From a virus (Duplodnaviria; Heunggongvirae; Uroviricota; Caudoviricetes): a stretch of 64,000 nt of DNA. Shown piece by piece: positions 37,361 to 59,073 of this stretch (position 1 is the first letter of the stretch; the number at the start of each line of letters is the position of its first letter). The DNA is taken from the IMG/VR virus record IMGVR_UViG_2875703104_000004; one strand, given 5' to 3'. The notes beneath the pieces are model-generated. The model saw only the letters and a list, made by a program, of their open reading frames with translations. It had not been told where the DNA came from and did not search any database. A program made the translations under genes and the position numbers.

Positions 37361-37483
37361 NGGTAAACGACGCACTTGTGCCGGCACATAATAGCAAGCA
37401 CCATAATAGATCAGATTCGATTCTTGCTGTAAGTGATAATTATTCTCGTTTTCGGGTCCTTTCCGTCGATCCAACAGGTTACG

Positions 37484-37495
37484 GGGCGGCGACCT
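37484..37495 (+). promoter_or_regulatory. cos: cosN (12-nt cohesive-end sequence GGGCGGCGACCT) with cosB-like sequence downstream; cos site 1
   Basis: Exact match to the lambda cohesive end by recall, followed by CGCGG(T)TTTTC(A/G)CTATTTATGAAAATTTT, about 188 bp upstream of the Nu1-like gene. Confidence 0.75.
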
Positions 37496-37671
37496 CGCGG
37501 TTTTTCACTATTTATGAAAATTTTTCAGGGAAAATCGTGTCGGTACTTCTCGAATATAACTTTTTGTTTTTTTTAATATTGCATCCGTAAAGGTCCGACA
37601 TGAAAGTGTCCGAAAATGCCTTTTTCTGGCGTTTTCATGTCGGGCCTTGTATTTGATAATGGGTTGTTTTC

Positions 37672-38220
37672 ATGAAGGTTAATAAAAAGAGGCTTGCCGA
37701 AATTTTCAACGTGGACCCGCGGACGATTGAACGCTGGCAGTCTCAGGGACTCCCTTGCGCCTCCAAAGGTAGTAAGGGCATTGAATCTGTATTTGATACT
37801 GCCATGGCAATTCAGTGGTATGCGCAGAGGGAAACTGATATCGAAAACGAAAAGCTCCGCAAAGAACTGGACGATTTGCGTGCGGCAGCGGAGTCAGATT
37901 TACAACCCGGCACCATTGACTATGAACGCTACCGGCTCACAAAAGCGCAGGCAGATGCGCAGGAACTGAAAAATGCCCGTGAAGACGGAGTAGTGCTGGA
38001 AACTGAACTGTTTACCTTCATTCTGCAACGTGTGGCACAGGAGATTTCGGGGATACTTGTGCGTGTGCCGTTGACATTACAGCGTAAATATCCGGACATT
38101 TCACCATCACACCTTGATGTGGTGAAAACTGAAATCGCGAAAGCCTCCAATGTTGCAGCTAAGGCCGGTGAAAACGTGGGCGGGTGGATCGATGATTTCA
38201 GACGCGCAGAAGGCAGCTAA
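37672..38220 (+). CDS. nu1: Terminase small subunit (Nu1-like), 182 aa
   Basis: Winged-HTH N-terminus ...[12 protein letters not shown]...; conserved ...[18 protein letters not shown]...[27 protein letters not shown]... as in lambda Nu1 (recall). Confidence 0.85.
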
Positions 38221-40120
38221 TGCAGCCGGTGCGATAGCTACAGGGCTTTTATCTCTCATTATTCCTGTTCCACTGACGACAGTTCAGTGGGCCAATAAAC
38301 ATTATTACCTTCCTAAAGAGTCGTCTTATACCCCGGGGCGATGGGAAACACTGCCGTTTCAGGTTGGCATCATGAACTGTATGGGCAACGATCTGATTCG
38401 CACGGTTAACCTGATTAAATCTGCCCGTGTTGGTTATACAAAGATGTTGCTGGGAGTGGAGGCTTATTTTATTGAGCATAAATCACGCAACAGCCTTCTT
38501 TTTCAGCCCACGGACTCAGCTGCTGAAGATTTTATGAAATCTCATGTTGAGCCAACGATAAGGGATGTTCCTGCATTGCTGGAGCTGGCTCCATGGTTCG
38601 GAAGAAAACACCGCGATAATACGCTCACCCTGAAGCGTTTTTCCTCCGGTGTGGGGTTCTGGTGTCTGGGTGGTGCGGCAGCAAAAAACTACCGTGAAAA
38701 ATCCGTGGATGTGGTCTGTTATGACGAGCTTTCCTCGTTCGAACCGGATGTTGAAAAAGAGGGTTCGCCAACCCTGCTGGGGGATAAACGTATTGAGGGC
38801 TCTGTATGGCCAAAATCCATTCGCGGCTCGACGCCTAAAATCAAAGGCTCCTGCCAGATCGAAAAAGCCGCTAACGAGTCGGCACACTTCATGCGTTTTT
38901 ATGTGCCCTGTCCGCACTGTGGGGAGGAGCAGTATCTGAAATTTGGCGATGATGCCTCGCCTTTCGGTCTTAAGTGGGAGAAGAATAAGCCAGAAAGTGT
39001 TTTCTACCTTTGTGAGCATCATGGCTGTGTGATCCATCAGTCTGAGCTTGACCAGAGTAACGGGCGGTGGATCTGTGAAAACACGGGCATGTGGACCCGT
39101 GACGGCCTGATGTTTTTCAGCGCCCGGGGTGATGAAATTCCGCCGCCGCGCTCCATCACTTTCCATATCTGGACGGCGTACAGTCCGTTCACCACCTGGG
39201 TACAGATTGTCTATGACTGGCTGGATGCACTGAAAGATCCCAACGGCCTGAAAACCTTTGTGAACACCACGCTGGGCGAGACCTGGGAAGAGGCTGTGGG
39301 CGAAAAACTCGATCACCAGGTGCTGATGGATAAGGTTGTGCGTTACACGGCGGCGGTGCCTGCCCGGGTGGTTTATCTGACGGCGGGCATTGACTCGCAG
39401 CGAAACCGTTTTGAGATGTATGTCTGGGGATGGGCTCCGGGAGAGGAAGCCTTTCTGGTGGATAAAATCATCATTATGGGGCGTCCCGATGAGGAAGAGA
39501 CGCTGTTACGTGTGGATGCGGCGATCAACAAAAAATACCGCCATGCAGACGGAACCGAAATGACCATTTCCCGTGTCTGCTGGGACATCGGGGGGATCGA
39601 TGGCGAAATCGTTTATCAGAGGTCAAAAAAACACGGTGTTTTCCGGGTGCTGCCGGTAAAAGGCGCGTCTGTCTATGGCAAGCCGGTGATCACCATGCCG
39701 AAAACCCGCAATCAGCGGGGCGTTTATCTGTGTGAAGTGGGGACGGACACCGCAAAAGAAATTCTCTATGCCCGTATGAAAGCCGAGCCCACGCCTGCGG
39801 ATGAAGCCACGTCGTATGCCATCCGTTTTCCTGATGATCCGGAGATTTTTTCGCAGACAGAGGCGCAGCAACTGGTCGCGGAAGAGCTTGTGGAGAAGTG
39901 GGAAAAAGGAAAGATGCGTCTGCTGTGGGATAACAAAAAGCGGCGTAACGAAGCGCTGGACTGCCTGGTGTATGCCTACGCGGCATTACGTGTGTCCGTG
40001 CAACGCTGGCAGCTTGATCTGGCTGTACTGGCAAAATCCCGGGAAGAAGAGACGACCCGGCCAACCCTTAAAGAACTGGCAGCGAAGCTGTCCGGAGGAG
40101 TGAATGGTTACAGTCGCTGA
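38192..40120 (+). CDS. A: Terminase large subunit (gpA-like)
   Basis: Co-linear with lambda gpA (…RWETLPFQ…[13 protein letters not shown]…[21 protein letters not shown]…) by recall; ATG 38192 overlaps the Nu1 end. Confidence 0.9.
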
Positions 40121-40310
40121 ACTGCAGGCGCTGCGTCAGGCGCGCCTTGATTTATTAACCGGTAAACGGGTGGTGTCTGTCCAGAAAGATGGTCGCAGAA
40201 TTGAATATACGGCGGCTTCTCTGGATGAGCTTAACCGGGCGATCAATGATGCGGAGTCGGTACTGGGGACAACCCGGTGTCGCCGTCGTCCGCTGGGAGT
40301 GAGGTTATGA
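40104..40310 (+). CDS. W: Head-tail joining protein W (68 aa)
   Basis: ...LMTGKRVATVQKDGRR.EFTA-type sequence as in lambda W (recall). Confidence 0.8.
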   Translation: MVTVAELQALRQARLDLLTGKRVVSVQKDGRRIEYTAASLDELNRAINDAESVLGTTRCRRRPLGVRL

Positions 40311-42015
40311 AACGAACGCCTGTCCTGATTGATGTGAACGGCGTTCCGCTTCGTGAGAGTCTCAGCTACAACGGGGGCGGTGCAGGATTTGGCGGGCAAA
40401 TGGCTGAGTGGTTGCCACCGGCGCAGAGTGCCGATGCGGCCCTGCTGCCCGCGTTGCGTCTGGGGAATGCCCGGGCAGATGATCTGGTGCGCAATAACGG
40501 AATAGCGGCTAATGCGGTGGCTCTGCATAAGGATCACATTGTCGGGCATATGTTTCTGATCAGCTACCGTCCGAACTGGCGCTGGCTGGGGATGCGGGAG
40601 ACCGCAGCAAAAAGCTTTGTCGATGAGGTGGAGGCGGCCTGGTCGGAATACGCCGAAGGGATGTTTGGCGAGATCGACGTGGAAGGAAAACGCACGTTCA
40701 CGGAATTTATCCGTGAAGGTGTGGGCGTTCATGCGTTTAACGGCGAAATCTTTGTGCAGCCGGTCTGGGATACGGAAACCACGCAGTTATTCCGTACGCG
40801 TTTTAAAGCCGTGAGTCCGAAACGGGTGGACACGCCTGGACACGGTATGGGGAACCGTTTTCTGCGGGCCGGTGTGGAGGTCGATCGATATGGCCGTGCC
40901 GTCGCGTACCATATCTGTGAGGATGATTTTCCGTTCTCTGGTAGTGGACGATGGGAACGGATCCCGCGTGAACTTCCCACCGGGCGTCCGGCCATGCTGC
41001 ATATTTTCGAGCCGGTGGAGGACGGGCAGACCCGTGGGGCTAATCAGTTTTACAGCGTCATGGAACGGCTGAAGATGCTCGATTCCCTGCAGGCAACACA
41101 GCTTCAGTCGGCCATAGTGAAGGCGATGTATGCAGCGACGATTGAAAGTGAACTTGATACCGAAAAGGCCTTTGAATATATCGCCGGCGCGCCACAGGAG
41201 CAGAAGGATAATCCGCTTATTAATATTCTGGAGAAGTTCTCCAGCTGGTATGACACGAATAACGTGACACTGGGCGGTGTCAAAATTCCGCACCTTTTCC
41301 CTGGTGATGATCTGAAACTACAGACTGCGCAGGATTCAGACAATGGATTTTCTGCGCTTGAACAGGCGCTGCTGCGGTATATCGCCGCCGGTCTTGGCGT
41401 TTCCTACGAACAGTTGTCCCGTGATTACTCGAAGGTCAGTTACTCAAGTGCCCGCGCCTCCGCCAATGAGTCGTGGAACAGGCGCTGCTGCGGTATATCG
41501 CCGCCGGTCTTGGCGTTTCCTACGAACAGTTGTCCCGTGATTACTCGAAGGTCAGTTACTCAAGTGCCCGCGCCTCCGCCAATGAGTCGTGGCGCTATTT
41601 TATGGGGCGGCGAAAATTTATTGCGGCCCGGCTGGCCACGCAGATGTTTTCCTGCTGGCTGGAAGAGGCACTTCTTCGGGGGATTATTCGTCCGCCACGG
41701 GCACGTTTTGATTTTTATCAGGCGCGATCAGCCTGGTCACGGGCAGAGTGGATTGGTGCCGGAAGAATGGCCATTGACGGGCTCAAGGAAGTCCAGGAAT
41801 CAGTGATGCGCATTGAGGCCGGACTGAGCACGTATGAGAAAGAGCTGGCGCTGATGGGCGAGGATTATCAGGACATTTTCCGCCAGCAGGTCAGGGAATC
41901 TGCTGAGCGGCAAAAAGCCGGACTCTCACGTCCGGTGTGGATAGAGCAGGCGTATCAGCAGCAGATAGCGGAGAGTCGTAGGCCGGAAGAGGAGACAACA
42001 CCACGTGAGACGTAA
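40307..42015 (+). CDS. B: Portal protein (gpB-like), disrupted in this assembly by a 116-bp tandem duplication (41361-41476, 41477-41592)
   Basis: N-part ORF 40277-41806 and C-part ORF 41473-42015 are co-linear with lambda B; removing one duplicate unit restores the frame. Confidence 0.8.
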
Positions 42016-43510
42016 TCTTTCACACATTATTGCCGCAGCATTCAATGAACCGCTGCTTCTGGAGCCCGCCTATGCGCGGGTTTTCTTTTGCGCGCTCGGG
42101 CGCGAGATGGGGGCAGCAAGTCTTTCGGTACCACAACAGCAGGTACAGTTTGATGCTCCCGGAATGCTGGCTGAAACGGACGAGTACATGGCCGGAGGTA
42201 AACGACCGGCCCGTGTTTACCGGGTGGTGAACGGTATTGCTGTACTGCCGGTGACCGGCACGCTGGTGCACCGGCTGGGTGGTATGCGGCCATTTTCCGG
42301 AATGACAGGCTATGACGGCATTGTCGCCTGTCTTCAGCAGGCAATGGCGGATAGCCAGGTGCGGGGCGTACTGCTGGACATTGACAGTCCGGGCGGGCAG
42401 GCCGCCGGCGCGTTTGACTGCGCTGACATGATTTACCGCCTCCGTCAGCAGAAGCCGGTCTGGGCACTGTGCAATGACACGGCCTGTTCTGCAGCCATGC
42501 TGCTGGCGTCGGCCTGCTCCCGACGGCTGGTTACCCAGACATCCCGTATCGGCTCCATTGGCGTGATGATGAGCCATGTCAGCTATGCCGGTCATCTGGC
42601 GCAGGCCGGTGTGGATATCACGCTGATTTACTCAGGGGCGCACAAGGTGGATGGCAATCAGTTTGAAGCGTTGCCGGCAGAGGTTCGCCAGGACATGCAG
42701 CAGCGGATTGATGCGGCGCGCCGGATGTTTGCCGAAAAAGTGGCGATGTATACCGGTCTGTCTGTTGATGCCGTCACGGGAACAGAGGCTGCCGTTTTTG
42801 AAGGTCAGTCCGGCATTGAGGCCGGGCTGGCGGATGAATTAATCAATGCGTCGGATGCCATCAGTGTGATGGCCACGGCGCTGAACAGTAATGTCAGAGG
42901 AGGCACTATGCCGCAATTAACTGCAACGGAAGCCGCCGCGCAGGAGAACCAGCGAGTGATGGGGATCCTGACATGCCAGGAAGCGAAAGGACGTGAACAG
43001 CTTGCCACGATGCTGGCAGGACAACAGGGCATGAGCGTTGAACAGGCCCGGGCGATTCTGGCCGCGGCGGCACCGCAGCAGCCGGTGGCATCCACGCAGA
43101 GTGAAGCCGATCGCATTATGGCGTGTGAAGAAGCGAACGGTCGTGAACAACTGGCGGCAACGCTGGCGGCGATGCCGGAGATGACGGTGGAAAAAGCCCG
43201 CCCGATCCTGGCTGCTTCACCGCAGGCGGATGCCGGACCATCACTCCGTGATCAGATCATGGCACTGGATGAGGCAAAAGGGGCTGAGGCGCAGGCTGAA
43301 CAGCTGGCTGCCTGCCCGGGAATGACAGTGGAGAGCGCCCGGGCTGTGCTGGCTGCGGGATCAGGTAAGGCAGAACCGGTCTCTGCATCCACAACCGCCA
43401 TGTTTGAACATTTCATGGCGAACCATTCACCGGCAGCGGTACAGGGTGGCGTGGCACAGACGTCAGCAGACGGTGATGCGGACGTGAAAATGCTCATGGC
43501 CATGCCATGA
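42005..43510 (+). CDS. C: Capsid maturation protease / scaffold (gpC with nested Nu3-like region), GTG start
   Basis: ...IAAAFNEPLLLEPAYARVFFCAL...SGMTGYDGIVACLQQA...DSPGG...LCNDTACSAA... parallels lambda C (S49 peptidase family) by recall. Confidence 0.85.
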   Translation: MRRNLSHIIAAAFNEPLLLEPAYARVFFCALGREMGAASLSVPQQQVQFDAPGMLAETDEYMAGGKRPARVYRVVNGIAVLPVTGTLVHRLGGMRPFSGMTGYDGIVACLQQAMADSQVRGVLLDIDSPGGQAAGAFDCADMIYRLRQQKPVWALCNDTACSAAMLLASACSRRLVTQTSRIGSIGVMMSHVSYAGHLAQAGVDITLIYSGAHKVDGNQFEALPAEVRQDMQQRIDAARRMFAEKVAMYTGLSVDAVTGTEAAVFEGQSGIEAGLADELINASDAISVMATALNSNVRGGTMPQLTATEAAAQENQRVMGILTCQEAKGREQLATMLAGQQGMSVEQARAILAAAAPQQPVASTQSEADRIMACEEANGREQLAATLAAMPEMTVEKARPILAASPQADAGPSLRDQIMALDEAKGAEAQAEQLAACPGMTVESARAVLAAGSGKAEPVSASTTAMFEHFMANHSPAAVQGGVAQTSADGDADVKMLMAMP

Positions 43511-43546
43511 AGTCAGTGCTGACCATCAATAGGAGGTTTTTACAAT

Positions 43547-43894
43547 ATGGTGACGAAAACCATCACTGAACAGCGTGCGGAAGTACGTATTTTTGCCGGT
43601 AATGATCCGGCTCATACCGCCACAGGCAGCAGCGGGATTTCCTCGCCAACACCGGCACTGACGCCCCTGATGCTGGATGAAGCCACCGGGAAACTGGTGG
43701 TCTGGGACGGACAGAAAGCCGGTAGTGCGGTTGGCATACTGGTACTGCCGCTTGAAGGCACAGAGACGGCGCTGACGTATTACAAGTCGGGAACCTTTGC
43801 GACGGAGGCAATCCACTGGCCTGAAAGTGTGGATGAACACAAAAAGGCCAACGCCTTTGCTGGCAGTGCCCTGAGTCACGCGGCGCTGCCGTAA
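43547..43894 (+). CDS. D: Head decoration protein D (115 aa)
   Basis: ...DPAHTATGSSG...TPLMLD...KLVVWDG...LTYYKSGTF... as lambda gpD (recall). Confidence 0.85.
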   Translation: MVTKTITEQRAEVRIFAGNDPAHTATGSSGISSPTPALTPLMLDEATGKLVVWDGQKAGSAVGILVLPLEGTETALTYYKSGTFATEAIHWPESVDEHKKANAFAGSALSHAALP

Positions 43895-43951
43895 CACGTT
43901 ATCAGGCCACCGCGGTGGCCTGACTGATTTCTGAATGAAAGGAACTGATTT

Positions 43952-44980
43952 ATGGGATTGTTTACGACCCGCCAGTTACTCGGTTATACCGAACAAAAAG
44001 TTAAATTTCGTGCGCTGTTTCTGGAGCTGTTTTTCCGCCGTACGGTGAATTTCCATACCGAAGAGGTGATGCTGGACAAAATTACCGGAAAAACGCCGGT
44101 GGCGGCCTATGTCTCCCCGGTTGTTGAAGGAAAAGTGCTGCGTCATCGTGGTGGTGAAACCCGCGTGTTGCGTCCGGGCTACGTCAAGCCGAAACACGAA
44201 TTTAATTACCAGCAGGCGGTTGAGCGCCTTCCTGGTGAAGATCCATCTCAACTGAATGATCCGGCTTACCGCCGTCTGCGTATCATTACCGATAACCTCA
44301 AACAGGAAGAGCACGCGATTGTCCAGGTGGAAGAAATGCAGGCGGTAAATGCTGTGTTGTATGGCAAATACACCATGGAAGGAGACCAGTTCGAGAAAAT
44401 TGAGGTCGATTTTGGCAGGTCGACGAAGAATAACATCACTCAGGGTAGTGGTAAGGAGTGGTCAAAACAGGATCGTGACACGTTCGATCCTACACATGAT
44501 ATTGACCTCTACTGCGACCTGGCCAGCGGTCTTGTGAATATTGCCATTATGGACGGTACCGTCTGGCGTCTTCTGAATGGTTTTAAGCTGTTCCGCGAAA
44601 AACTGGATACCCGTCGCGGTTCAAATTCTCAACTCGAAACGGCAGTGAAAGATCTGGGCGCAGTGGTGTCCTTCAAGGGGTATTACGGCGATCTGGCCAT
44701 TGTGGTGGCGAAAACGTCTTATATAGCAGAAGACGGTATCGAAAAACGTTATCTTCCAGATGGCATGCTGGTTCTGGGGAATACTGCTGCAGATGGGATC
44801 CGTTGTTACGGTGCCATTCAGGATGCTCAGGCGTTGTCCGAAGGTGTGGTGGCCTCTTCCCGTTATCCGAAACACTGGCTGACGGTAGGGGATCCCGCCC
44901 GTGAATTTACCATGACGCAGTCCGCGCCGCTGATGGTGTTGCCGGACCCGGATGAGTTTGTGGTGGTACAGGTGAAATAA
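43952..44980 (+). CDS. E: Major capsid protein E (342 aa)
   Basis: Co-linear with lambda gpE (…PGYVKPKHE…DPAYRRLRII…ETAVKDLG…ARYPKHWLTVGDPAREFTM…) by recall. Confidence 0.9.
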   Translation: MGLFTTRQLLGYTEQKVKFRALFLELFFRRTVNFHTEEVMLDKITGKTPVAAYVSPVVEGKVLRHRGGETRVLRPGYVKPKHEFNYQQAVERLPGEDPSQLNDPAYRRLRIITDNLKQEEHAIVQVEEMQAVNAVLYGKYTMEGDQFEKIEVDFGRSTKNNITQGSGKEWSKQDRDTFDPTHDIDLYCDLASGLVNIAIMDGTVWRLLNGFKLFREKLDTRRGSNSQLETAVKDLGAVVSFKGYYGDLAIVVAKTSYIAEDGIEKRYLPDGMLVLGNTAADGIRCYGAIQDAQALSEGVVASSRYPKHWLTVGDPAREFTMTQSAPLMVLPDPDEFVVVQVK

Positions 44981-45031
44981 TCCGTGAGCGGGGGCGAAAT
45001 GCCCCCGTGTCTTTTTTCACAGGGGGCTGAT

Positions 45032-45406
45032 ATGGCAACGAAAGAGCAAAATCTGAAACGGCTTGATGAACTGGCCCTGATTCTGGGGCGTGAGCCGGAT
45101 ATATCCGGGAGTGCCGCAGAGATAGCGCAGCGGGTGGCAGAATGGGAAGAGGAAATGCAGTCATCCGGCGATGATGTACAGGTTATGAATATGGATATCC
45201 GGGAGCGGGAAACCGCGGCTCATGATGTTCGTGAGGAAACATCCGGCGCGTTAACGCGCATCAGAGTTCTGACCTGCCTCCATCTCTGTGGCGTTGATGG
45301 TGAAACGGGGGAATCCGTTGAGCTTGCGGATGTTGGTCGGGTGATTCTGATTATGTCCTCAGATGCAAAAACACACGTTGATGGTGGAATGGCTGTTTAT
45401 GCGTGA
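45032..45406 (+). CDS. FI: FI-like DNA packaging protein
   Basis: Position after E; RBS AGGGGG; internal start of ORF 44984-45406. Confidence 0.6.
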   Translation: MATKEQNLKRLDELALILGREPDISGSAAEIAQRVAEWEEEMQSSGDDVQVMNMDIRERETAAHDVREETSGALTRIRVLTCLHLCGVDGETGESVELADVGRVILIMSSDAKTHVDGGMAVYA

Positions 45407-45752
45407 TTTTCAGAATGCCTTTGATGCCGCCCTTGCCGGGGTGGACAGTACGATTGTTGAAGTGATGGGCATCAGTGCGCAGTTCACCTCCGGTGCACAG
45501 CGTGGCGGCGAGGTTCATGGCGTTTTTGACGATCCGGAGTCGCTGGGTTTTGCCAGTAGTGGGATCCGTATTGAAGGAAGTAACCCGTCATTATTTGTGC
45601 TTACGGATACGGTTTGTGCTGTACGGCGTGGTGACACGCTGACCATTAACGGCGAGATGTTCTGGGTGGACCGTGTTTCTCCGGATGACGGAGGGAGTTG
45701 TTATCTCTGGCTCAACCGGGGGCAACCACCTGCCGCCAGCCGTCGCCGCTGA
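45399..45752 (+). CDS. FII: FII-like head-tail connector protein
   Basis: ...FDAALAGVDSTIVEVMG...GVFDDPE...EGSNPSLFV...RRGDTLTI...FWVDRVSPDDGGSCYLWL... parallels lambda FII (recall). Confidence 0.7.
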   Translation: MRDFQNAFDAALAGVDSTIVEVMGISAQFTSGAQRGGEVHGVFDDPESLGFASSGIRIEGSNPSLFVLTDTVCAVRRGDTLTINGEMFWVDRVSPDDGGSCYLWLNRGQPPAASRRR

Positions 45753-45763
45753 AAGGGGGATGT

Positions 45764-46342
45764 ATGGCCATAAAAGGTCTTGAGCAGGCCGTTGAAAACC
45801 TCAGCCGTATCAGCAAAACGGCAGTGCCTGGTGCCGCCGCAATGGCCATTAACCGCGTTGCTTCATCCGCGATATCGCAGTCGGCGTCACTGGTTGCCCG
45901 TGAGACAAAGGTACGCCGGAAACTGGTAAAGGAAAGGGCCAGGCTGAAAAGGGCCACGGTCAAAAATCCGCAGGCCAGAATCAAAGTTAACCGGGGGGAT
46001 TTGCCCGTAATCAGGCTGGGTAATGCGCGGGTTGTCCTTTCGCGCCGCAGGCGTCGTAAAAAGGGGCAGCGTTCATCCCTGAAAGGTGGCGGCAGCGTGC
46101 TTGTGGTGGGTAACCGTCGTATTCCCGGCGCGTTTATTCAGCAACTGAAAAATGGCCGCTGGCATGTCATGCAGCGTGTGGCCGGGAAAAACCGTTACCC
46201 CATTGATGTGGTGAAAATTCCGATGGCGGTGCCGCTGACCACGGCGTTTAAACAGAATATTGAGCGGATACGGCGTGAGCGTCTTCCGAAAGAGCTGGGC
46301 TATGCGCTGCAGCATCAACTGAGGATGGTAATAAAGCGATGA
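45764..46342 (+). CDS. Z: Tail completion protein Z
   Basis: MAIKGLEQAVENLSRISKTAVPGAAAMAINRVASSA... near-identical to lambda Z by recall. Confidence 0.8.
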   Translation: MAIKGLEQAVENLSRISKTAVPGAAAMAINRVASSAISQSASLVARETKVRRKLVKERARLKRATVKNPQARIKVNRGDLPVIRLGNARVVLSRRRRRKKGQRSSLKGGGSVLVVGNRRIPGAFIQQLKNGRWHVMQRVAGKNRYPIDVVKIPMAVPLTTAFKQNIERIRRERLPKELGYALQHQLRMVIKR

Positions 46343-46734
46343 AACATACTGAATTCCGTGCAGCCGTACTGGATGCACTGGAAAAACATGACACCGGGGC
46401 GACGCTTTTTGATGGTCGCCCCGCTGTTTTTGATGAGGCGGATTTTCCGGCAATTGCCGTTTATCTCACCGGCGCTGAATACACGGGCGAAGAGCTGGAC
46501 AGCGATACCTGGCAGGCGGAGCTGCATATTGAAGTTTTCCTGCCTGCTCAGGTGCCGGATTCAGAGCTGGATTCGTGGATGGAAAGCCGGATTTATCCGG
46601 CGATGAGCGATATCCCGGCACTGTCAGATTTGATCACCAGTATGGTGGCCAGTGGCTATGACTACCGGCGCGACGATGATGCGGGCCTGTGGAGTTCAGC
46701 CGATCTGACTTATGTCATTACCTATGAAATGTGA
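46339..46734 (+). CDS. U: Tail terminator protein U (131 aa)
   Basis: Position and size as lambda U; overlapping stop/start with Z. Confidence 0.8.
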
Positions 46735-46741
46735 GGACGAT

Positions 46742-47482: not shown

Positions 47483-47497
47483 TCCGGAGAGTCAGCG

Positions 47498-50825: not shown

Positions 50826-51151
50826 AAACCTTCCGCTGGAAAGTGAAACCCGGGATGGATGTGACATCGGCTCCTTCCGTCAGGGAGGTGCGCTTTGGTG
50901 ATGGCTATTCCCAGCGTGCGCCTGCCGGGCTGAACGCTGACCTGAAAACGTACAGCGTGACGCTGTCTGTCTCCCGTGAGGAGGCCACGGCGCTGGAGTC
51001 GTTTCTGGCTGAGCACGGGGGCTGGAAGGCCTTTCTGTGGACGCCGCCTTATGGTTACAGGCAGATAAAGGTGACCTGCGCAAAATGGTCGTCGCGGGTC
51101 AGTATGCTGCGTGTTGAGTTCAGCGCAGAGTTTGAACAGGTGGTGAACTGA
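50822..51151 (+). CDS. M: Minor tail protein M (109 aa)
   Basis: Size and position as lambda M; overlapping start/stop. Confidence 0.85.
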   Translation: MKTFRWKVKPGMDVTSAPSVREVRFGDGYSQRAPAGLNADLKTYSVTLSVSREEATALESFLAEHGGWKAFLWTPPYGYRQIKVTCAKWSSRVSMLRVEFSAEFEQVVN

Positions 51152-51849
51152 TGCAGGATATCCGGCAGGAAACATTGAATGAATGCACCCGTGCGGAGCA
51201 GTCGGCCAGCGTGGTGCTCTGGGAAATCGATCTGACAGAGGTCGGTGGAGAACGTTATTTTTTCTGTAATGAGCAGAACGAAAAAGGTGAGCCGGTCACC
51301 TGGCAGGGGCGACAGTATCAGCCGTATCCCATTCAGGGGAGTAGTTTTGAACTGAATGGCAAAGGCACCAGTACGCGCCCCACGCTGACGGTTTCTAACC
51401 TGTACGGTATGGTCACCGGGATGGTGGAAGATCTGCAGAGTCTGGTCGGCGGAACGGTGGTCAGGCGTAAGGTTTACGCCCGTTTTCTGGATGCGGTGAA
51501 CTTCGTCAACGGAAACAGCGACGCCGATCCGGAGCAGGAGGTGATCAGCCGCTGGCGCATCGAGCAGTGCAGCGAACTGAGTGCGGTCAGTGCCTCCTTT
51601 GTACTGTCCACACCGACGGAAACGGATGGTGCCGTTTTTCCGGGGCGCATCATGCTGGCTAATACCTGCACCTGGACCTATCGCGGTGATGAGTGCGGTT
51701 ATCACGGTCCGGCGGTCGCGGATGAATATGATCAGCCGACTTCCGATATCACGAAGGATAAATGCAGCAAATGCCTGAGCGGCTGTAAGTTTCGCAATAA
51801 CGTCGGCAACTTTGGCGGCTTCCTTTCCATTAACAAACTTTCGCAGTAA
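51151..51849 (+). CDS. L: Minor tail protein L (232 aa)
   Basis: Size and position as lambda L; C-terminal Cys cluster. Confidence 0.85.
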   Translation: MQDIRQETLNECTRAEQSASVVLWEIDLTEVGGERYFFCNEQNEKGEPVTWQGRQYQPYPIQGSSFELNGKGTSTRPTLTVSNLYGMVTGMVEDLQSLVGGTVVRRKVYARFLDAVNFVNGNSDADPEQEVISRWRIEQCSELSAVSASFVLSTPTETDGAVFPGRIMLANTCTWTYRGDECGYHGPAVADEYDQPTSDITKDKCSKCLSGCKFRNNVGNFGGFLSINKLSQ

Positions 51850-51854
51850 ATCCC

Positions 51855-52598
51855 ATGACAGAGACAGAATCAGCGATTCTGGCGCATGCCCGGCGATGTG
51901 CGCCAGCGGAGTCGTGCGGCTTCGTGGTGAGAGCGCCGGAGGGGGAAAGATATTTTCCCTGCGTGAATATCTCCGGTGAGCCGGAGGCGTATTTCCGGAT
52001 GGCTCCGGAGGACTGGCTGCAGGCAGAGATGCAGGGTGAGATTGTGGCGCTGGTCCACAGTCATCCCGGTGGTCTGCCCTGGCTGAGTGAGGCCGACCGG
52101 CGGCTGCAGGTGCAGAGTGATTTGCCGTGGTGGCTGGTCTGCCGGGGGGCGATTCATAAGTTCCGCTGTGTGCCGCATCTCACCGGGCGGCGCTTTGAGC
52201 ACGGGGTGACGGACTGTTACACGCTGTTCCGGGACGCTTACCATCTGGCGGGGATTGAGATGCCGGACTTTCATCGTGAGGATGACTGGTGGCGTAACGG
52301 CCAGAATCTCTATCTTGATAATCTGGAGGCCACAGGGCTGTATCAGGTGCCGTTGTCAGCGGCGCAGCCGGGCGATGTGCTGCTGTGCTGCTTTGGTTCA
52401 TCGGTGCCGAATCATGCCGCTATTTACTGTGGTGACGGCGAGCTGCTGCACCATATTCCTGAACAACTGAGTAAACGAGAGAGGTATACCGACAAATGGC
52501 AGCGACGCACACACTCCCTCTGGCGTCACCGGGCATGGCGCGCATCTGCCTTTACGGGGATTTACAACGATTTGGCCGCCGCATCGACCTTCGTGTGA
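51855..52598 (+). CDS. K: Tail assembly protein K (JAB/MPN and NlpC/P60-like), ORF as assembled
   Basis: ...VALVHSHPGG... (JAB/MPN-like) and ...CYTLF... motifs; 3' end overlaps I more than expected, so the stop position is uncertain. Confidence 0.75.
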   Translation: MTETESAILAHARRCAPAESCGFVVRAPEGERYFPCVNISGEPEAYFRMAPEDWLQAEMQGEIVALVHSHPGGLPWLSEADRRLQVQSDLPWWLVCRGAIHKFRCVPHLTGRRFEHGVTDCYTLFRDAYHLAGIEMPDFHREDDWWRNGQNLYLDNLEATGLYQVPLSAAQPGDVLLCCFGSSVPNHAAIYCGDGELLHHIPEQLSKRERYTDKWQRRTHSLWRHRAWRASAFTGIYNDLAAASTFV

Positions 52599-53167
52599 AA
52601 ACGGGGGCTGAAGCCATCCGCGCACTGGCCACACAGCTCCCGGTGTTTCGTCAGAAACTGAGCGACGGCTGGTATCAGGTACGGATTGCCGGGCGGGACG
52701 TCAGCACGTCCGGGTTAACGGCGCAGTTACATGAGACTCTGCCTGATGGCGCTGTGATTCATATTGTTCCCAGAGTCGCCGGGGCCAAGTCAGGTGGCGT
52801 ATTCCAGATTGTCCTGGGGGCTGCCGCCATTGCCGGATCATTCTTTACCGCCGGAGCCACCCTTGCAGCATGGGGGGCAGCCATTGGGGCCGGTGGTATG
52901 ACCGGCATCCTGTTTTCTCTCGGTGCCAGTATGGTGCTCGGTGGTGTGGCGCAGATGCTGGCACCGAAAGCCAGAACTCCCCGTACACAGACAACGGATA
53001 ACGGCAAACAGAACACCTATTTCTCCTCACTGGATAACATGGTTGCCCAGGGCAATGTTCTGCCGGTTCTGTACGGTGAAATGCGCGTGGGGTCACGCGT
53101 GGTTTCTCAGGAGATCAGCACGGCAGACGAAGGGGATGGTGGTCAGGTTGTGGTGATTGGTCGCTGA
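52496..53167 (+). CDS. I: Tail assembly protein I (223 aa)
   Basis: MAATHTLPLASPGMARICLYGDLQRFGRRIDLRVKTGAEAIRALATQLP... near-identical to lambda I by recall. Confidence 0.85.
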   Translation: MAATHTLPLASPGMARICLYGDLQRFGRRIDLRVKTGAEAIRALATQLPVFRQKLSDGWYQVRIAGRDVSTSGLTAQLHETLPDGAVIHIVPRVAGAKSGGVFQIVLGAAAIAGSFFTAGATLAAWGAAIGAGGMTGILFSLGASMVLGGVAQMLAPKARTPRTQTTDNGKQNTYFSSLDNMVAQGNVLPVLYGEMRVGSRVVSQEISTADEGDGGQVVVIGR

Positions 53168-53227
53168 TGCAAAATGTTTTATGTGAAACCGCCTCCGGGC
53201 GGTTTTATCGTTTATGGAGCATGAGGA

Positions 53228-56200
53228 ATGGGTAAAGGCAGCAGTAAGGGGCATACCCCGCGCGAAGCGAAGGACAACCTGAAATCATCCCAGATGCTGA
53301 GCGTGATAGACGCCATCAGCGAAGGGCCGGTTGAAGGTCCGGTGGATGGATTAAAAAGCGTGCTGCTGAACAGTACGCCGGTGCTGGACAGTGAGGGGAA
53401 TACCAATATATTCGGCGTCACGGTGGTGTTCCGGGCCGGTGAGCAGGAGCAGACACCGCCGGAGGGATTTGAATCCTCCGGCTCCGAGACGGTGCTCGGT
53501 ACAGAAGTGAAATATGACACGCCGATCACCCGGACCATCACGTCGGCAAACATTGACCGTCTGCGTTTTACTTTCGGCGTGCAGGCACTGGTGGAAACCA
53601 CCTCAAAGGGGGACAGGAATCCATCGGAAGTCCGCCTGCTGGTTCAGATTCAACGTAACGGTGGCTGGGTGACGGAAAAAGACATCACCATTAAGGGCAA
53701 AACCACGTCGCAGTATCTGGCCTCGGTGGTGGTGGATAACCTGCCGCCGCGCCCGTTTAATATCCGGATGCGCAGGATGACGCCGGACAGCACCACAGAC
53801 CAGTTGCAGAACAAAACGCTCTGGTCGTCATACACCGAAATCATCGATGTGAAACAGTGCTACCCGAACACGGCACTGGTCGGCGTACAGGTGGACTCGG
53901 AGCAGTTCGGCAGCCAGCAGGTGAGCCGTAATTATCATCTTCGCGGGCGCATTCTGCAGGTGCCGTCGAACTATAACCCGCAGACGCGGCAATACAGCGG
54001 TATCTGGGACGGAACGTTTAAGCCAGCATACAGCAACAACATGGCCTGGTGTCTGTGGGATATGCTGACCCATCCGCGCTACGGCATGGGGAAACGTCTT
54101 GGTGCGGCAGATGTGGATAAATGGGCGCTGTATGTCATCGGCCAGAATTGCGACCAGTCAGTGCCGGACGGCTTTGGCGGCACGGAGCCGCGCATCACCT
54201 GTAATGCGTACCTGACCACACAGCGCAAGGCGTGGGATGTGCTCAGTGATTTTTGCTCGGCGATGCGCTGTATGCCGGTATGGAACGGGCAGACGCTGAC
54301 ATTCGTGCAGGACCGACCGTCGGATAAGGTGTGGACCTATAACCGCAGTAATGTGGTGATGCCGGATGATGGCGCGCCGTTCCGCTACAGCTTCAGCGCC
54401 CTGAAAGACCGCCATAATGCCGTTGAGGTGAACTGGATTGACCCGGATAACGGCTGGGAGACGGCGACAGAGCTTGTGGAGGACACGCAGGCCATTGCCC
54501 GTTACGGTCGTAACGTCACGAAGATGGATGCCTTTGGCTGTACCAGCCGGGGGCAGGCACACCGCGCCGGGCTGTGGCTGATTAAAACGGAGCTGCTGGA
54601 AACGCAGACCGTGGACTTCAGCGTGGGTGCAGAAGGGCTTCGCCATGTACCGGGCGATGTCATTGAAATCTGTGATGATGACTATGCGGGGATCAGCATC
54701 GGCGGGCGCGTGCTGGCGGTGAACAACCAGACGCGGACACTGACGCTCGACCGTGAAATCACGCTGCCATCCTCCGGCACCACGCTGATAAGCCTGGCTG
54801 ACGGACAGGGGAATCCGGTCAGCGTGGAGGTCCAGTCCGTCACCGACGGCGTGAAGGTAAAAGTGAGCCGTGTTCCTGACGGCGTTGCAGAATACAGCGT
54901 GTGGGGGCTGAAGTTGCCAACGTTGCGCCAGCGCCTGTTCCGCTGTGTGAGTATCCGTGAGAACGATGACGGCACGTATGCCATCACTGCCGTGCAGCAT
55001 GTACCGGAAAAAGAGGCCATCGTGGATAACGGGGCGCACTTTGACGGCGACCAGAGCGGCACGGTGAATGGTGTCACGCCGCCAGCGGTGCAGCACCAGC
55101 GGGGAATATCAGGTGCTGGCGCGCTGGGACACGCCGAAGGTGGTGAAGGGGGTGAGCTTTATGCTTCGCCTGACCGTGGCAGCGGATGACGGCAGTGAGC
55201 GGCTGGTCAGCACGGCCCGGACGACGGAAACCACATACCGCTTCAGGCAACTGGCGCTGGGGAACTACAGGCTGACAGTCCGGGCGGTAAATGCGTGGGG
55301 GCAGCAGGGCGATCCGGCATCGGTATCGTTCCGGATTGCCGCACCGGCAGCGCCGTCGCAGATTGAGCTGACACCGGGGTATTTTCAGATAACCGCCACG
55401 CCGCATCTTGCGGTTTATGATCCGACGGTACAGTTTGAGTTCTGGTTCTCGGAAAAGCGGATTGCGGATATCAGGCAGGTTGAAACCACAGCACGCTATC
55501 TTGGCACGGCGCTGTACTGGATAGCCGCCAGTATCAATATCAAACCGGGCCATGATTATTATTTTTACATCCGCAGTGTGAACACCGTTGGCAAATCGGC
55601 ATTTGTGGAGGCTGTTGGCCAGCCGAGTGATGATGCATCCGGCTATCTGAATTTTTTCAAAGGAGAGATAGGGAAAACCCATCTGGCTCAGGAGTTGTGG
55701 ACGCAGATTGATAACGGTCAGCTTGCGCCTGACCTGGCTGAAATCAGGACGTCCATTACGGGTGTCAGCAATGAAATCACGCAGACCGTCAATAAGAAAC
55801 TGGAAGACCAGAGTGCAGCGATCCAGCAGATACAGAAGGTTCAGGTTGATACAAATAATAACCTGAACAGCATGTGGGCTGTGAAGCTGCAGCAGATGCA
55901 GGACGGACGCCTTTATATCGCGGGTATTGGTGCCGGTGTTGAGAATACTCCTGACGGTATGCAGAGTCAGGTGCTGCTGGCGGCGGACAGGATTGCGATG
56001 ATTAATCCTGCGAATGGCAACACAAAGCCGATGTTTGTTGGGCAGGGCGATCAGATATTCATGAACGAAGTGTTCCTGAAATATCTGACGGCTCCCACCA
56101 TTACCAGCGGTGGCAATCCCCCAACGTTTTCACTGACACCTGATGGTCGACTTTCTGCGAAAAATGCGGATATCAGCGGTAACGTGAACGCGAACTCCGG

Positions 56201-56687
56201 GACGCTCAACAACGTCACGATTAATCAGAACTGTCGGATTCTGGGAAAACTGTCAGCTAACCAGATTGAAGGTGATATTGTCAAAACGGTGGGAAAAGCC
56301 TTTCCGAGAAATGGCAGTTATGCCAGCGGTACAATAACGGTCACTGTGTACGATGACCAGGCTTTTGACCGTCAGATAGTAGTCCCCCCCGTTCTGTTTC
56401 GTGGGGGTAAGCATGAAAACTTCAACAGCAACAACCAACAGTCATACTGGTATTCAACCTGTAAGCTGCAGGTACTGAAGAACGGACAGGAAATCTTTCA
56501 GCAACCCGCGACGGATGTCAGCAGGGTATTTTCATCAGTCATTGATATGCCTGCCGGACACGGCCATGTCACCCTGACTTTCAATGTTTCTTCATATGGT
56601 GCTAATAACTGGACGCCAACGACCAGTATCAGCGACCTTCTTGTTGTTGTGATGAAGAAATCTACAGCCGGTATCAGTATCAGTTGA
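53228..56687 (+). pseudogene. J: Tail tip / host specificity protein J, broken by a roughly 23-bp frame-shifting deletion near 55096
   Basis: ORFs 53228-55189 and 55068-56687 are co-linear with lambda J; junction ...PPAVQH | (missing LTAEVTADS) | [17 protein letters not shown] by recall. Confidence 0.8.
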
Positions 56688-56739
56688 ATTTTATAACCCA
56701 GATACGGGCGCCAGAAATGGCGCCTTTTTTATTTGTGGA

Positions 56740-57570
56740 GTGAATATGGCAGTACAGATTTCAGGCGTGCTGAAAGACGGTGCAGGAAAACCGATACAGA
56801 ACTGCACCATTCAGCTCAAAGCAAAACGTAACAGCACCACGGTTGTGGTGAACACGGTGGCCTCAGAAAATCCGGATGAAGCCGGACGTTACAGCATGGA
56901 TGTCGAGTATGGCCAGTACAGCGTTATCCTGCTGGTTGAAGGTTTTCCGCCTTCACATGCCGGGGCCATCACCGTGTATGAGGATTCTAAGCCGGGGACA
57001 TTGAATGATTTTCTGGGCGCTGCAACAGAAGATGATGTTCGTCCGGAGGCACTGTATCGTTTTGAAAAGATGGTGGAAGAGGTGGCACGCAACGCTGAAG
57101 CCGCCTCTCAGAGCGCAGCGGCAGCAAAGAAATCAGAAACAGCAGCGGCATCGTCCAGGAATGCGGCGAAAACATCAGAGACGAATGCAGGTAACAGCGC
57201 GAAAGCGGCAGCTTCTTCAAAAACAGCCGCACAAAACGCAGCAACAGCGGCAGAACGTTCAGAGACAAATGCCCGTGCGTCAGAAGAAGCCTCCGCAGAC
57301 AGTGAAGAGGCTTCCCGCCGTAATGCAGAGTCAGCCGCTGAAAATGCCGGAGTCGCCACCACAAAAGCGCGGGAGGCCGCAGCAGACGCAACAAAGGCCG
57401 GGCAGAAAAAGGATGAGGCTCTGTCGGCAGCGATAATTAAAAACGATGCACACCGGGTTTTTACCGCGTTAATGATTCGCGGGTTTATCCCGGTGCGATG
57501 GTGGAAGAAACAGGAAGCTGTATTACAGAAAGTGCTACTACTGTATCCCGATGCGATGTATGTAATGTGA
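56740..57570 (+). CDS. stf: Side tail fibre protein Stf, N-terminal about 230 aa only, fused to an unrelated 3' tail
   Basis: MAVQISGVLKDGAGKPIQNCTIQLKAKRNSTTVVVNTVASENPDEAGRYSMDVEYGQYSVILLVEGFPPSHAG... matches the lambda Stf N-terminus by recall; C-terminal part not Stf-like. Confidence 0.7.
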   Translation: MNMAVQISGVLKDGAGKPIQNCTIQLKAKRNSTTVVVNTVASENPDEAGRYSMDVEYGQYSVILLVEGFPPSHAGAITVYEDSKPGTLNDFLGAATEDDVRPEALYRFEKMVEEVARNAEAASQSAAAAKKSETAAASSRNAAKTSETNAGNSAKAAASSKTAAQNAATAAERSETNARASEEASADSEEASRRNAESAAENAGVATTKAREAAADATKAGQKKDEALSAAIIKNDAHRVFTALMIRGFIPVRWWKKQEAVLQKVLLLYPDAMYVM

Positions 57571-58062
57571 GTCAGATAATGGCACAGGATGTGGTGATGT
57601 GGCAGTCTGGAACACAGGATATATTGTCAGAATAAGACCCGTAGGAATAAAAATGAAAAGACGCCTTTTACTACTTTTTCTGTTATCTGTCCTGGCAGTG
57701 GGATGCTCGCAGCAAAAAGCTGATGAGCCCCGGCAATTAGTGACGGTGTATCCACGATATCCGGAATATGCTGCAGCAAATTATATCAAGGGGCTGGTTG
57801 AGGTTAAGTTCGATATTGGTGCTGATGGGACTGTGACACGGATCGTTTTTCTCCGCTCAGAGCCTCATAATTTGTTTCGTGATGAAGTGGTGAAGGCCAT
57901 GGCGAAATGGCGATTTGAAAAGAATCGCCCCTGTCAGGGAGTGAAGAGACAATTTATCTTTACGCCGTCACGTCCTTGATGCTTCCAGGTAGAGAGGGGC
58001 TGGANGCAGGAGAAAAATGAAAGAGCCAGCGGTTATATTTTTGTCATGGCTGACGAGGAATG
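57433..58062. repeat. Second copy of the 630-bp segment also present at 36731-37360
   Basis: Seen directly; contains an N at 58005. Confidence 0.85.
57653..57979 (+). CDS. Lipoprotein with TonB-C-terminal-like domain; copy 2
   Basis: Identical protein to 36951-37277. Confidence 0.6.
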   Translation: MKRRLLLLFLLSVLAVGCSQQKADEPRQLVTVYPRYPEYAAANYIKGLVEVKFDIGADGTVTRIVFLRSEPHNLFRDEVVKAMAKWRFEKNRPCQGVKRQFIFTPSRP

Positions 58063-58342
58063 ATGGAAGAAGGCGTTGTATGCCACACAACGCCTCACTG
58101 TTCATTTCTTCTTTTTCTCTGGTGGAACCCGATGAATAAGAGTTGCACTGGTTTCCGATGAGATGGCGATATACTCGGGCAAAGTATGCTGGCAGTTTTC
58201 CAACTGGTCAAAAATACCTGCTCTCGTCTGTTGCAATGCCTGCAGCATGCGGCGGCAATGCGCCTTGCTTTTACTAACCATCTTTCCTTCCTCTATCAGT
58301 CGCTGCGTGAACTCATCATGNAATACCAGGTAAATGCGGATG

Positions 58343-58594
58343 TTATCGGTTTTGGCTACGCAGCATAGTACAAAACGGACAGGTGCATCCCGGGACGGGG
58401 GAGGCGTCACATGTCCCTGTGATGGTTGTTCCGGGTAATGNACTGTGTGGGGCATAAAAATGTCCGATAATTTTACTTTCTACCGCAGTTAGTTGATTCG
58501 TTGGTCCTGGTAGCACATTGGGCGAGGATTTAAATGCCAGGCAACTGAAGGATGATGTNGCAAGGGAGATAGCGAGAATATTTCTGATTTTCAT
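58343..58594 (-). CDS. Possible small secreted protein (MKIRNILAISL.TSSFSCLAF...), low-quality region with several Ns
   Basis: Internal start of ORF 58343-58663; signal-peptide-like N-terminus; sequence carries Ns. Confidence 0.25.
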   Translation of the reverse strand: MKIRNILAISLXTSSFSCLAFKSSPNVLPGPTNQLTAVESKIIGHFYAPHSXLPGTTITGTCDASPVPGCTCPFCTMLRSQNR

Positions 58595-58608
58595 TTGATG
58601 ATGCCTCT

Positions 58609-58908
58609 GTGTGAAATGACGGTAAACGACGCACTTGTGCCGGCACATAATAGCAAGCACCATAATAGATCAGATTCGATTCTTGCTGTAAGTGATAATT
58701 ATTCTCGTTTTCGGGTCCTTTCCGTCGATCCAACAGGTTACGGGGCGGCGACCTCGCGGTGTGAAATGACGGTAAACGACGCACTTGTGCCGGCACATAA
58801 TAGCAAGCACCATAATAGATCAGATTCGATTCTTGCTGTAAGTGATAATTATTCTCGTTTTCGGGTCCTTTCCGTCGATCCAACAGGTTACGGGGCGGCG
58901 ACCTCGCG
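58609..58908. repeat. Two tandem copies of a 150-bp cos-proximal unit (58609-58758, 58759-58908); one further copy at about 37362-37500
   Basis: Seen directly; each unit ends in the cosN sequence. Confidence 0.8.
58893..58904 (+). promoter_or_regulatory. cos: cosN (GGGCGGCGACCT) followed by cosB-like CGCGGGTTTTCGCTATTTATGAAAATTTT; cos site 2
   Basis: Exact match to the lambda left-end sequence by recall; 181 bp upstream of the second Nu1-like gene. Confidence 0.75.
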
Positions 58909-59073
58909 GGTTTTCGCTATTTATGAAAATTTTTAGGGAAAAATCAGATCCGTTTTTCTTCTTTTTAACTGATTGATTATCAATAGAATTTTAAAAATAT
59001 AAAAGGATCTAACAAAGGCTGTTTTTGTTAGAAAACGCCATTTTCAGATCCTTTCTGGTTCCCGGGGGAGTGT

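What the first reader, a model, noticed from the sequence alone, without database searches (positions are those of the whole stretch)
37362..59073. Two cos sites and two divergent lambda-like packaging modules in tandem, each preceded by the same lipoprotein gene
cosN (GGGCGGCGACCT plus cosB-like sequence) occurs at 37484 and 58893, each about 185 bp before a Nu1-like gene. The two Nu1 proteins differ at many positions while the A, W and B genes are near-identical. A 630-bp block with a TonB-C-like lipoprotein gene precedes both cos sites. Either two related prophages lie head-to-tail with the second lacking its own int and lysis region, or contigs from different prophages were scaffolded together.
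Basis: partly seen in the sequence, partly recalled or inferred. Interest (0 to 1): 0.5.

Follow-up and report, generated by a model that had tools for sequence, protein, structure and literature searches.

The report
Two prophages mis-joined by assembly
The apparent head-to-tail pair of lambda-like packaging modules is an assembly artefact: pieces of two separate, already known E. coli prophages were strung together across a repeat they share, so nothing unusual is there.

Summary
The listed sequence features exist, but cosN occurs three times (37484, 58743, 58893), not twice. The tandem arrangement is not real.

The window is a chain of draft contigs from two known lambdoid prophages:
- Y sits at icd. 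It is CFT073/Nissle-like, and its cos and small terminase are identical to phage 21.
- X sits next to potC in ST131-type genomes. Its integrase and early genes are at window 1-14365. Its late genes are the "second module" at 57432-64000.

Main evidence:
- X and Y references share a 1,328-nt TonB-cosQ-cosN block and differ in it at only four positions. The window has N at exactly those four (58005, 58321, 58441, 58559).
- That block starts and ends exactly where X and Y diverge, so it is a collapsed consensus of two loci.
- The extra cosN and the 116-nt repeats that break both portal genes are unmerged overlapping contig ends. Removing the portal repeats restores intact portal ORFs.
- The 57432/57433 junction is absent from 5,426 complete E. 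coli genomes, a phage collection and three contig collections.

In complete genomes the second module has its own integrase and lysis genes. Interest is low.

The parts
1..14365 (.). Integrase-to-antiterminator region of prophage X, the potC-adjacent prophage of ST131-type genomes. The int gene is at 1-1119 on the minus strand. This is the 'missing' int and early region of the second packaging module. It contains six window-only duplications at contig joins.
   Evidence: 99.9-100% identical to NZ_CP115343 1861501-1874488 in 7 pieces. The 1,377 extra nt equal the sum of the six duplication periods.
14366..14366 (.). Single N marking a join between contigs that are not adjacent: the inside of the X antiterminator gene on one side, the sitA/attR end of prophage Y on the other.
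14367..57432 (+). Prophage Y, the icd-integrated lambdoid prophage. The order is the attR-side piece (sitA, icd'), then the icd repeat, AAA ATPase, int, early genes, lysis genes, iss, TonB_C, cos, head and tail genes, and the N-terminal part of the tail-fibre gene.
   Evidence: 99.6-100% to Nissle 1917, CFT073 and EcPF40.
36731..37360 (+). Y copy of the block shared by X and Y. It contains the TonB_C lipoprotein gene at 36951-37277 and carries the Y allele (A) at 37303.
37361..37361 (.). N replacing 558 nt (CFT073 locus L001 22362-22919). Those 558 nt are present only in the second copy, at 58063-58620.
37454..37649 (+). Complete phage 21-type cos. cosQ GGGTCCT is at 37454-37460, cosN at 37484-37495, cosB R3 at 37533-37548, I1 at 37557-37569, R2 at 37590-37605 and R1 at 37633-37649.
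   Evidence: Identical to the annotated ends of phage 21, OL657228.
37672..42015 (+). Y packaging and portal genes. Small terminase is at 37672-38220 (100% identical to phage 21 gp1), large terminase at 38192-40120, W at 40104-40310 and portal from 40307. The portal gene is broken by an artefactual exact repeat, 41360-41476 = 41476-41592.
57432..58759 (+). Collapsed consensus contig of the X/Y shared block: TonB_C gene at 57653-57979, cosQ at 58713-58719, and cosN at 58743-58754 cut off five bases after it, at ..CTCGCGG. There is an N at each of the four positions where X and Y differ (58005, 58321, 58441, 58559). Its left edge is the false junction with the Y tail-fibre gene.
   Evidence: Alignment A2.
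58759..58909 (+). The first ~150 nt of the X-specific contig. They repeat the last ~150 nt of the collapsed contig (an unmerged overlap) and so create the extra cosQ/cosN copy.
   Evidence: 58609-58759 = 58759-58909 at 100%. The contig starts 150 nt before the first X-specific base, 58910. The repeat junction string is absent from three contig collections.
58863..59073 (+). The real cos of prophage X. cosQ is at 58863-58869 and cosN at 58893-58904. Its cosB differs from phage 21, with AGATCC cores at 58946-58951 (direct), 59005-59010 (inverted) and 59046-59051 (direct).
   Evidence: 99.98% to NZ_CP115343.
59074..64000 (+). X packaging and portal genes. Small terminase is at 59074-59622, large terminase at 59594-61522, W at 61506-61712 and portal from 61709. 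The portal gene carries the same artefactual repeat, 62762-62878 = 62878-62994.

Best explanation
The window is not a continuous piece of one chromosome. It is a draft sequence made by concatenating short-read contigs from two different lambdoid prophages, X and Y.

X and Y share a 1.33-kb stretch just upstream of their terminase genes: the TonB_C lipoprotein gene, two small ORFs, cosQ and cosN. The assembler collapsed the two copies into one consensus contig and wrote N where they differ. That contig, followed by the X-specific late-gene contig, was placed directly after the last Y contig, which ends in the tail-fibre gene. This produces an apparent Y structural module flanked by cos sites and followed by a second packaging module.

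Where neighbouring contigs overlapped, the overlap was not merged and appears as an exact tandem repeat. This explains the extra cosN at 58743 and the 116-nt repeats in both portal genes. Where the repeat contig was needed a second time, inside Y, only an N was written (37361).

The real biology underneath is ordinary. Y packages from a phage 21-type cos. X packages from a cos with the same cosQ/cosN but a different cosB and a matching variant small terminase.

Shown: the collapse, the contig boundaries, the identity of the two prophages and the absence of the junction elsewhere. Inferred: the assembler behaviour, and the reason the contigs were put in this order.
For: 1. In the 1,328-nt shared block, the X reference (NZ_CP115343) and the Y reference (CFT073) differ at exactly four positions. 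The window has N at exactly those four and matches both references everywhere else (N list).
2. The block 57432-58759 begins at the first base after the last X/Y mismatch and ends at the last base before the next one.
3. The X-specific contig starts exactly 150 nt before the first X-specific base, which gives the 151-nt cos repeat.
4. The 117-nt portal repeat lies in the centre of the longest exact X/Y run in the part of the packaging and portal genes present in both copies (183 nt), 33 nt from each end. That is 2 x 150 - 183 = 117. Removing it restores intact 530-aa portal ORFs in both copies.
5. Several N sit exactly between exact duplicates: 2635-2655, 7952 and 13618. Window 1-14365 is 1,377 nt longer than the complete genomes, which is exactly the sum of its six duplication periods.
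6. In complete genomes, window 1-14365 and 57432-64000 belong to one prophage. There they are separated by 7.6 kb of tRNA, esterase and lysis genes that are absent from the window. Prophage Y lies tens of kb away, at icd.
7. No place in 5,426 complete E. coli genomes or 50,697 phage records covers 80% of window 56000-59600, and in the best records listed the match starts or stops at 57433. The 47-nt junction string has no match in the IMG/VR, GTDB-representative and JGI metagenome contig collections.
8. As a positive control for the scans, 30 IMG/VR contigs carry the X-type cos. Each has a single cosN. Of the 28 with any match upstream, 27 show lysis-gene homology and none shows J or tail-fibre sequence within 4 kb upstream.
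Against: - The 57432/57433 join has no N and no overlap, unlike most other joins.
- I could not show that the Y contig ends at a repeat boundary. The X tail-fibre gene is divergent at that point.
- The rule that a contig runs 150 nt into a repeat does not fit every duplication. The 163-nt and 422-nt overlaps do not fit, nor does the Y-left contig, which runs 630 nt into the shared block.
- The source record and its assembly method could not be identified, and no reads are available.
Confidence: 0.93

Rival explanations
1. The arrangement is real. An illegitimate recombination or nested insertion placed the late region of prophage X directly after the tail-fibre gene of prophage Y, leaving a 21.3-kb structural module flanked by cos sites.
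For: The join at 57432/57433 is seamless, with no N. Tandem prophages with two cos sites are a known packageable configuration (PMC4669245, read).
Against: - The breakpoint falls exactly on the edge of the X/Y shared block, and the block carries N at the four X/Y differences. It is therefore a consensus of two loci, not one locus.
- The structure would need a second illegitimate junction at 14366, and it would lose X's lysis genes and the host genes between potC and icd, including purB, phoPQ and mnmA.
- It is absent from every collection searched.
Confidence: 0.03
2. The same artefact, but the reads came from a mixture rather than from one genome carrying both prophages. The mixture could be two strains, or an induced lysate or virome containing phages X and Y. 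The contigs would then be a co-assembly.
For: - Y is laid out as a circular permutation, with its attR end joined to its attL end through the 216-nt icd repeat. An excised circular phage would give this layout.
- The window starts exactly at the end of the X int gene.
Against: - Many complete E. coli genomes carry both an X-type prophage and a Y-type prophage or its remnant, for example EcPF40, so one genome is sufficient.
- The att join can equally be a wrong turn at a repeat.
- These tools cannot separate the two cases. Either way the tandem cos structure is not real.
Confidence: 0.2
3. The second cos belongs to a cos-carrying satellite (a phage-inducible chromosomal island) inserted next to prophage Y, which hijacks the helper terminase.
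For: E. coli PICIs carry lambda-like cos sites with an altered cosB (abstracts of PMC6739421 and PMC9026076, listed).
Against: - The second cos is followed by full-length Nu1, A, W and portal genes that are 99.98-100% identical to a complete prophage.
- No match to PICI hallmark genes (int, alpA, rpp) turned up at the junction.
- Upstream of it lies the collapsed repeat contig.
Confidence: 0.01

Closest known systems
Collapsed-repeat and contig-concatenation artefacts in short-read drafts of E. coli genomes with several lambdoid prophages
   Same: - Ambiguous bases at positions where the copies differ.
- Contig ends at repeat boundaries.
- Unmerged overlapping ends that appear as exact tandem repeats.
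- A junction found in no finished genome.
   Different: Nothing of biological substance. Only the assembler and the ordering method remain unknown.
Phage 21 (OL657228) cos and terminase module
   Same: - Prophage Y matches phage 21 through cosQ, cosN, cosB (R3-I1-R2-R1), gene 1 and most of gene 2.
- It also carries the TonB_C gene at the right end.
   Different: Y is an icd-integrated prophage with different early genes and cargo: sitABCD, an inverse autotransporter and ompC.
potC-adjacent lambdoid prophage of ST131-type E. coli (for example NZ_CP115343 1861501-1906700)
   Same: Window 1-14365 and 57432-64000 match it at 99.9-100% once the artefactual duplications are removed.
   Different: The window lacks the 7.6 kb between the antiterminator gene and the TonB_C gene. 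In its place it has 43 kb of prophage Y.
Tandem dilysogens used for helper packaging (Feiss laboratory, PMC4669245)
   Same: On paper the layout is similar: an upstream cos, a stretch of phage DNA, then a downstream cos sharing cosQ and cosN.
   Different: Those are complete prophages joined at attP and about one genome length apart. Here the spacing is 21.3 kb, there is no att junction, and the structure is not real.

Membership tests
lambda/21-type cos site | 12-nt cosN with cosQ (GGGTCCT) about 30 nt upstream | tested here: met
   All three copies have both. cosQ is at 37454, 58713 and 58863; cosN is at 37484, 58743 and 58893. Annotated reference.
lambda/21-type cos site | cosB with R3, an IHF site, inverted R2 and R1, lying between cosN and the small terminase gene | tested here: met
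   - Copy at 37484: identical to the annotated phage 21 cosB.
- Copy at 58893: the same layout with AGATCC cores at +54, +113 (inverted) and +154.
- Copy at 58743: not met. The sequence restarts 17 nt after the start of cosN, so this copy is a repeat of contig ends and not a cos site.
tandem (head-to-tail) prophages | An att junction or a homologous crossover point between the two elements | tested here: not met
   The join is blunt, running from the tail-fibre gene into the first base of the shared block, with at most one base of ambiguity.
tandem (head-to-tail) prophages | The arrangement is reproducible in independent or finished assemblies | tested here: not met
   No place in 5,426 complete genomes or 50,697 phage records covers 80% of the junction region. 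The junction string has 0 hits in the viral, genome and metagenome contig collections.
collapsed-repeat / concatenated-contig artefact | Ambiguous consensus calls exactly at the positions where the repeat copies differ | tested here: met
   Four of four X/Y differences are N in the window, and there is no other N in the block.
collapsed-repeat / concatenated-contig artefact | Segment boundaries at repeat boundaries, and exact duplicates at joins that are absent from finished genomes | tested here: met
   Exception: the end of the Y contig at 57432 was not shown to be a repeat boundary.
collapsed-repeat / concatenated-contig artefact | Double read depth over the collapsed block and no reads spanning the false join | not testable with these tools
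   No reads are available and the source record was not identified.
phage-inducible chromosomal island with cos | A small island with int, alpA and rpp that lacks terminase and structural genes | tested here: not met
   The second cos is followed by full Nu1, A, W and portal genes of a complete prophage.

The most novel reading that the evidence does not exclude
The source strain really carries a Y structural module bracketed by a phage 21-type cos and an X-type cos 21.3 kb apart. The N calls and duplications would then be unrelated sequencing noise. Such a unit would be a cos-to-cos cassette of head and tail genes that a helper terminase could cut out.
Probability: 0.02. Interest if true: 0.45.

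Novelty: not a real feature. Interest (0 to 1): 0.04.

Why it matters
It matters only as a caution. Draft E. coli sequences with several lambdoid prophages can show false tandem cos sites, false duplications and false frameshifts where shared modules collapse. Any scan for unusual prophage architecture should first check for N at positions where repeat copies differ, and for exact repeats at contig joins. Biologically, the two modules are ordinary members of the lambda/21 packaging family.

Tried and rejected
1. Finding the source record. I looked up two window-specific chimeric proteins, the tail-fibre fusion ORF and the duplicated portal ORF. Neither is on record.
2. Searching three contig collections for the exact junction string and the exact cos-repeat string. 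All six scans returned nothing. The positive control worked.
3. Hit H1 (strain ZY22049), which has TonB, terminase and tail-fibre genes close together. It is a deletion remnant in the opposite order, not this junction.
4. Testing whether the Y contig ends at an X/Y repeat boundary in the tail-fibre gene. It does not, because X is divergent there. This point remains unexplained.
5. Testing whether the 65-nt deletion in the tape-measure gene and the 23-nt deletion in J come from X/Y repeat collapse. X and Y are only 75-82% identical there, so they do not. Both deletions are nevertheless absent from every complete genome.
6. Asking whether the X small terminase is of the N15 or lambda type. It is not: 31% and 51% identity.
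7. An exact-string test of the block start in the IMG/VR loci was too strict. I replaced it with BLAST.
Full report
**Observation**

The motif GGGCGGCGACCT occurs three times, at 37484, 58743 and 58893. About 0.2 occurrences are expected by chance.
- The copies at 37484 and 58893 lie 188 and 181 nt upstream of two Phage_Nu1 genes.
- The 630-nt block 36731-37360 recurs at 57433-58062 with one mismatch, which is an N.
- The block encodes a 108-aa TonB_C protein. It has a signal peptide ending in LAVGC, which I read as a lipobox.
- From the Nu1 genes on, the two copies align over 4.8 kb at 93.6%. Protein identity is 81.3% for Nu1, 96.0% for A, 97.1% for W and 98.1% for the portal.

It missed the following:
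- the third cosN, which lies inside an exact 151-nt tandem repeat;
- the N at 37361;
- four N inside the second copy of the block;
- exact 116-nt tandem repeats that break both portal genes.

**What the two modules are**

The first module, with everything from 14367 to 57432, is the icd-integrated lambdoid prophage known from CFT073, Nissle 1917 and, for the early genes, EcPF40. I call it Y.
- Identity to these references is 99.6-100%.
- Its cosQ, cosN, cosB (R3-I1-R2-R1) and small terminase match the annotated ends of phage 21 exactly. Phage 21 also carries the same TonB_C gene at its right end.

The second module (57432-64000) is 99.98-100% identical to the late region of a different prophage, which I call X. 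X lies next to potC in ST131-type complete genomes.
- In those genomes X has its own integrase, early genes, tRNAs and lysis genes.
- The integrase-to-antiterminator part of that same prophage is in the window at 1-14365, at 99.9-100% identity.
- The 7.6 kb that joins the two parts of X in finished genomes is missing from the window. In its place stand 43 kb of prophage Y.
- In finished genomes X and Y are tens of kb apart, separated by host genes including phoPQ, purB, mnmA and icd.

**Why the arrangement is an artefact**

(a) Collapsed repeat.
- I aligned the window with an X reference and a Y reference across the shared 1,328 nt. The two references differ at exactly four positions: C/A, T/G, C/T and T/C.
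- The window has N at exactly those four (58005, 58321, 58441, 58559) and matches both references at every other position.
- The stretch is therefore a consensus of reads from two loci, not the sequence of either one.

(b) Boundaries.
- This stretch begins at the first base after the last X/Y mismatch (57432). It ends at the last base before the next one (58759..CTCGCGG followed by G in X and T in Y).
- A real recombination endpoint would have no reason to fall there. A repeat contig must.

(c) The extra cosN.
- The X-specific sequence that follows starts exactly 150 nt upstream of the first X-specific base. It therefore repeats the last 150 nt of the collapsed contig.
- This is the whole origin of the extra cosQ/cosN at 58713/58743.

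(d) The portal repeats.
- The 117-nt repeat in both portal genes sits in the middle of the longest exact X/Y run in the part of the packaging and portal genes present in both copies (183 nt), 33 nt from each end.
- Two contigs that each reach 150 nt into that run would overlap by 2 x 150 - 183 = 117 nt.
- Deleting one repeat unit restores an intact 530-aa portal ORF in both copies.

(e) Signs of concatenation across the whole window.
- There are 37 N in the window. Several lie exactly between exact duplicates, at 2635-2655, 7952 and 13618.
- The X early region is 1,377 nt longer than in finished genomes. This is exactly the sum of its six duplication periods.
- The N at 37361 replaces 558 nt that occur only in the collapsed contig.

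(f) The junction is unique to this window.
- No place in 5,426 complete E. coli genomes or 50,697 phage records covers 80% of the region across 57432/57433.
- The junction string is absent from the IMG/VR, GTDB-representative and JGI metagenome contig collections. So is the cos-repeat junction string.
- The scans do work. The X-type cos was found in 30 IMG/VR contigs, each with a single cosN.
- 27 of the 28 contigs with any upstream match show lysis-gene homology within 4 kb upstream. None shows J or tail-fibre sequence there.

**How it most likely arose**

This part is inferred. Short reads of about 150 nt came either from a genome carrying both X and Y or from a mixture containing both.
- The 1.33-kb block shared by the two prophages collapsed into one contig, and its isolated differences were called N.
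- The unique contigs each ran about one read length into the repeats.
- The contigs were then concatenated, sometimes with an N between them and sometimes without, and their overlaps were not merged.
- The collapsed contig was used once, in front of the X late contig. That pair was placed after the last Y contig.

I could not establish the following:
- which program did this, or why the order is X-early, Y, X-late;
- why the Y contig stops at 57432, since the X tail-fibre gene is divergent there;
- why some overlaps (163 nt, 422 nt) do not fit the 150-nt rule.

**The real biology underneath**

Both prophages use lambda-family cos packaging and share the same cosQ and cosN.
[quoted passage not shown] Their packaging specificity lies in the small terminase-cosB interaction at initiation.
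- The pattern here fits this. The differences between X and Y are concentrated in cosB, in the N-terminal 73 residues of Nu1 (19 of 34 differences) and in the first 68 residues of A (11 of 26).
- X has a tripartite cosB with AGATCC cores at +54, +113 (inverted) and +154. These are the positions and orientations of phage 21's R3, R2 and R1.
- The X Nu1 protein is 81% identical to phage 21 gp1, 51% to lambda Nu1, 31% to N15 gp1 and 62% to that of phage PhiR5_1. This is ordinary module mosaicism.

**Rival explanations**
- A real illegitimate junction is very unlikely, for reasons (a), (b) and (f). It would also need a second such junction at 14366 and the loss of host genes.
- A PICI-type cos satellite is excluded by the full terminase and portal genes downstream of the second cos.
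- I cannot tell whether the reads came from one genome or from a mixture or lysate. The circularly permuted layout of Y, with attR joined to attL through the 216-nt icd repeat, fits either an excised phage circle or a wrong turn at the repeat. Neither case changes the verdict.

**Verdict**

The sequence features are present but the tandem architecture is not a real feature. Interest is low.

Noticed in passing
window 58905-59622: The X-type cosB (AGATCC cores in an R3/R2/R1 layout) and its small terminase differ from phage 21 and lambda. The recognition-helix region reads [10 protein letters not shown], against [10 protein letters not shown] in phage 21 and IRTIQNWQEQ in lambda. No phage in the INPHARED collection carries this type; the best hit is a partial 86.6% match. 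This stretch of X recurs at 99% identity or more in over a thousand complete E. coli records. It may be an untested packaging specificity within the lambda/21 family.
   Followed up: partly
window 14367-17118: The attR end of prophage Y (5' part of sitA, a hypothetical gene, the icd' remnant) is joined through the 216-nt icd 3' repeat to the attL end (AAA ATPase, HNH, int). This gives a circular permutation of Y that no complete genome shows. It is either an excised-circle (attP) read-through or another misjoin at a repeat.
   Followed up: partly
window about 49839 and 55097: The tape-measure gene has a 65-nt deletion and the J gene a 23-nt deletion relative to CFT073 and Nissle. Both cause frameshifts and both are absent from every complete E. 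coli genome searched. X and Y are too divergent here for X/Y collapse to explain them. They are probably further contig-join artefacts involving a third prophage copy.
   Followed up: partly
window 1586-1780: 195 nt lying between two exact 176-nt duplicates inside the X exonuclease gene match none of the fetched CFT073, ST131-type or phage 21 reference loci. Their origin is unknown.
   Followed up: partly
window 36951-37277 and 57653-57979: The TonB_C lipoprotein gene lies between the lysis genes and cos in phage 21, in Y and in X. It is present upstream of only 3 of 30 X-type cos sites in IMG/VR contigs, so it behaves as an optional cargo cassette (a moron).
   Followed up: partly
L001 32300-32550 (CFT073 NC_004431): The CFT073 reference itself carries an N and several single-base indels in the major tail gene V, which is annotated as frameshifted. 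The window's V gene (46712-47482) is intact. These differences look like errors in the old reference, not in the window.
   Followed up: no
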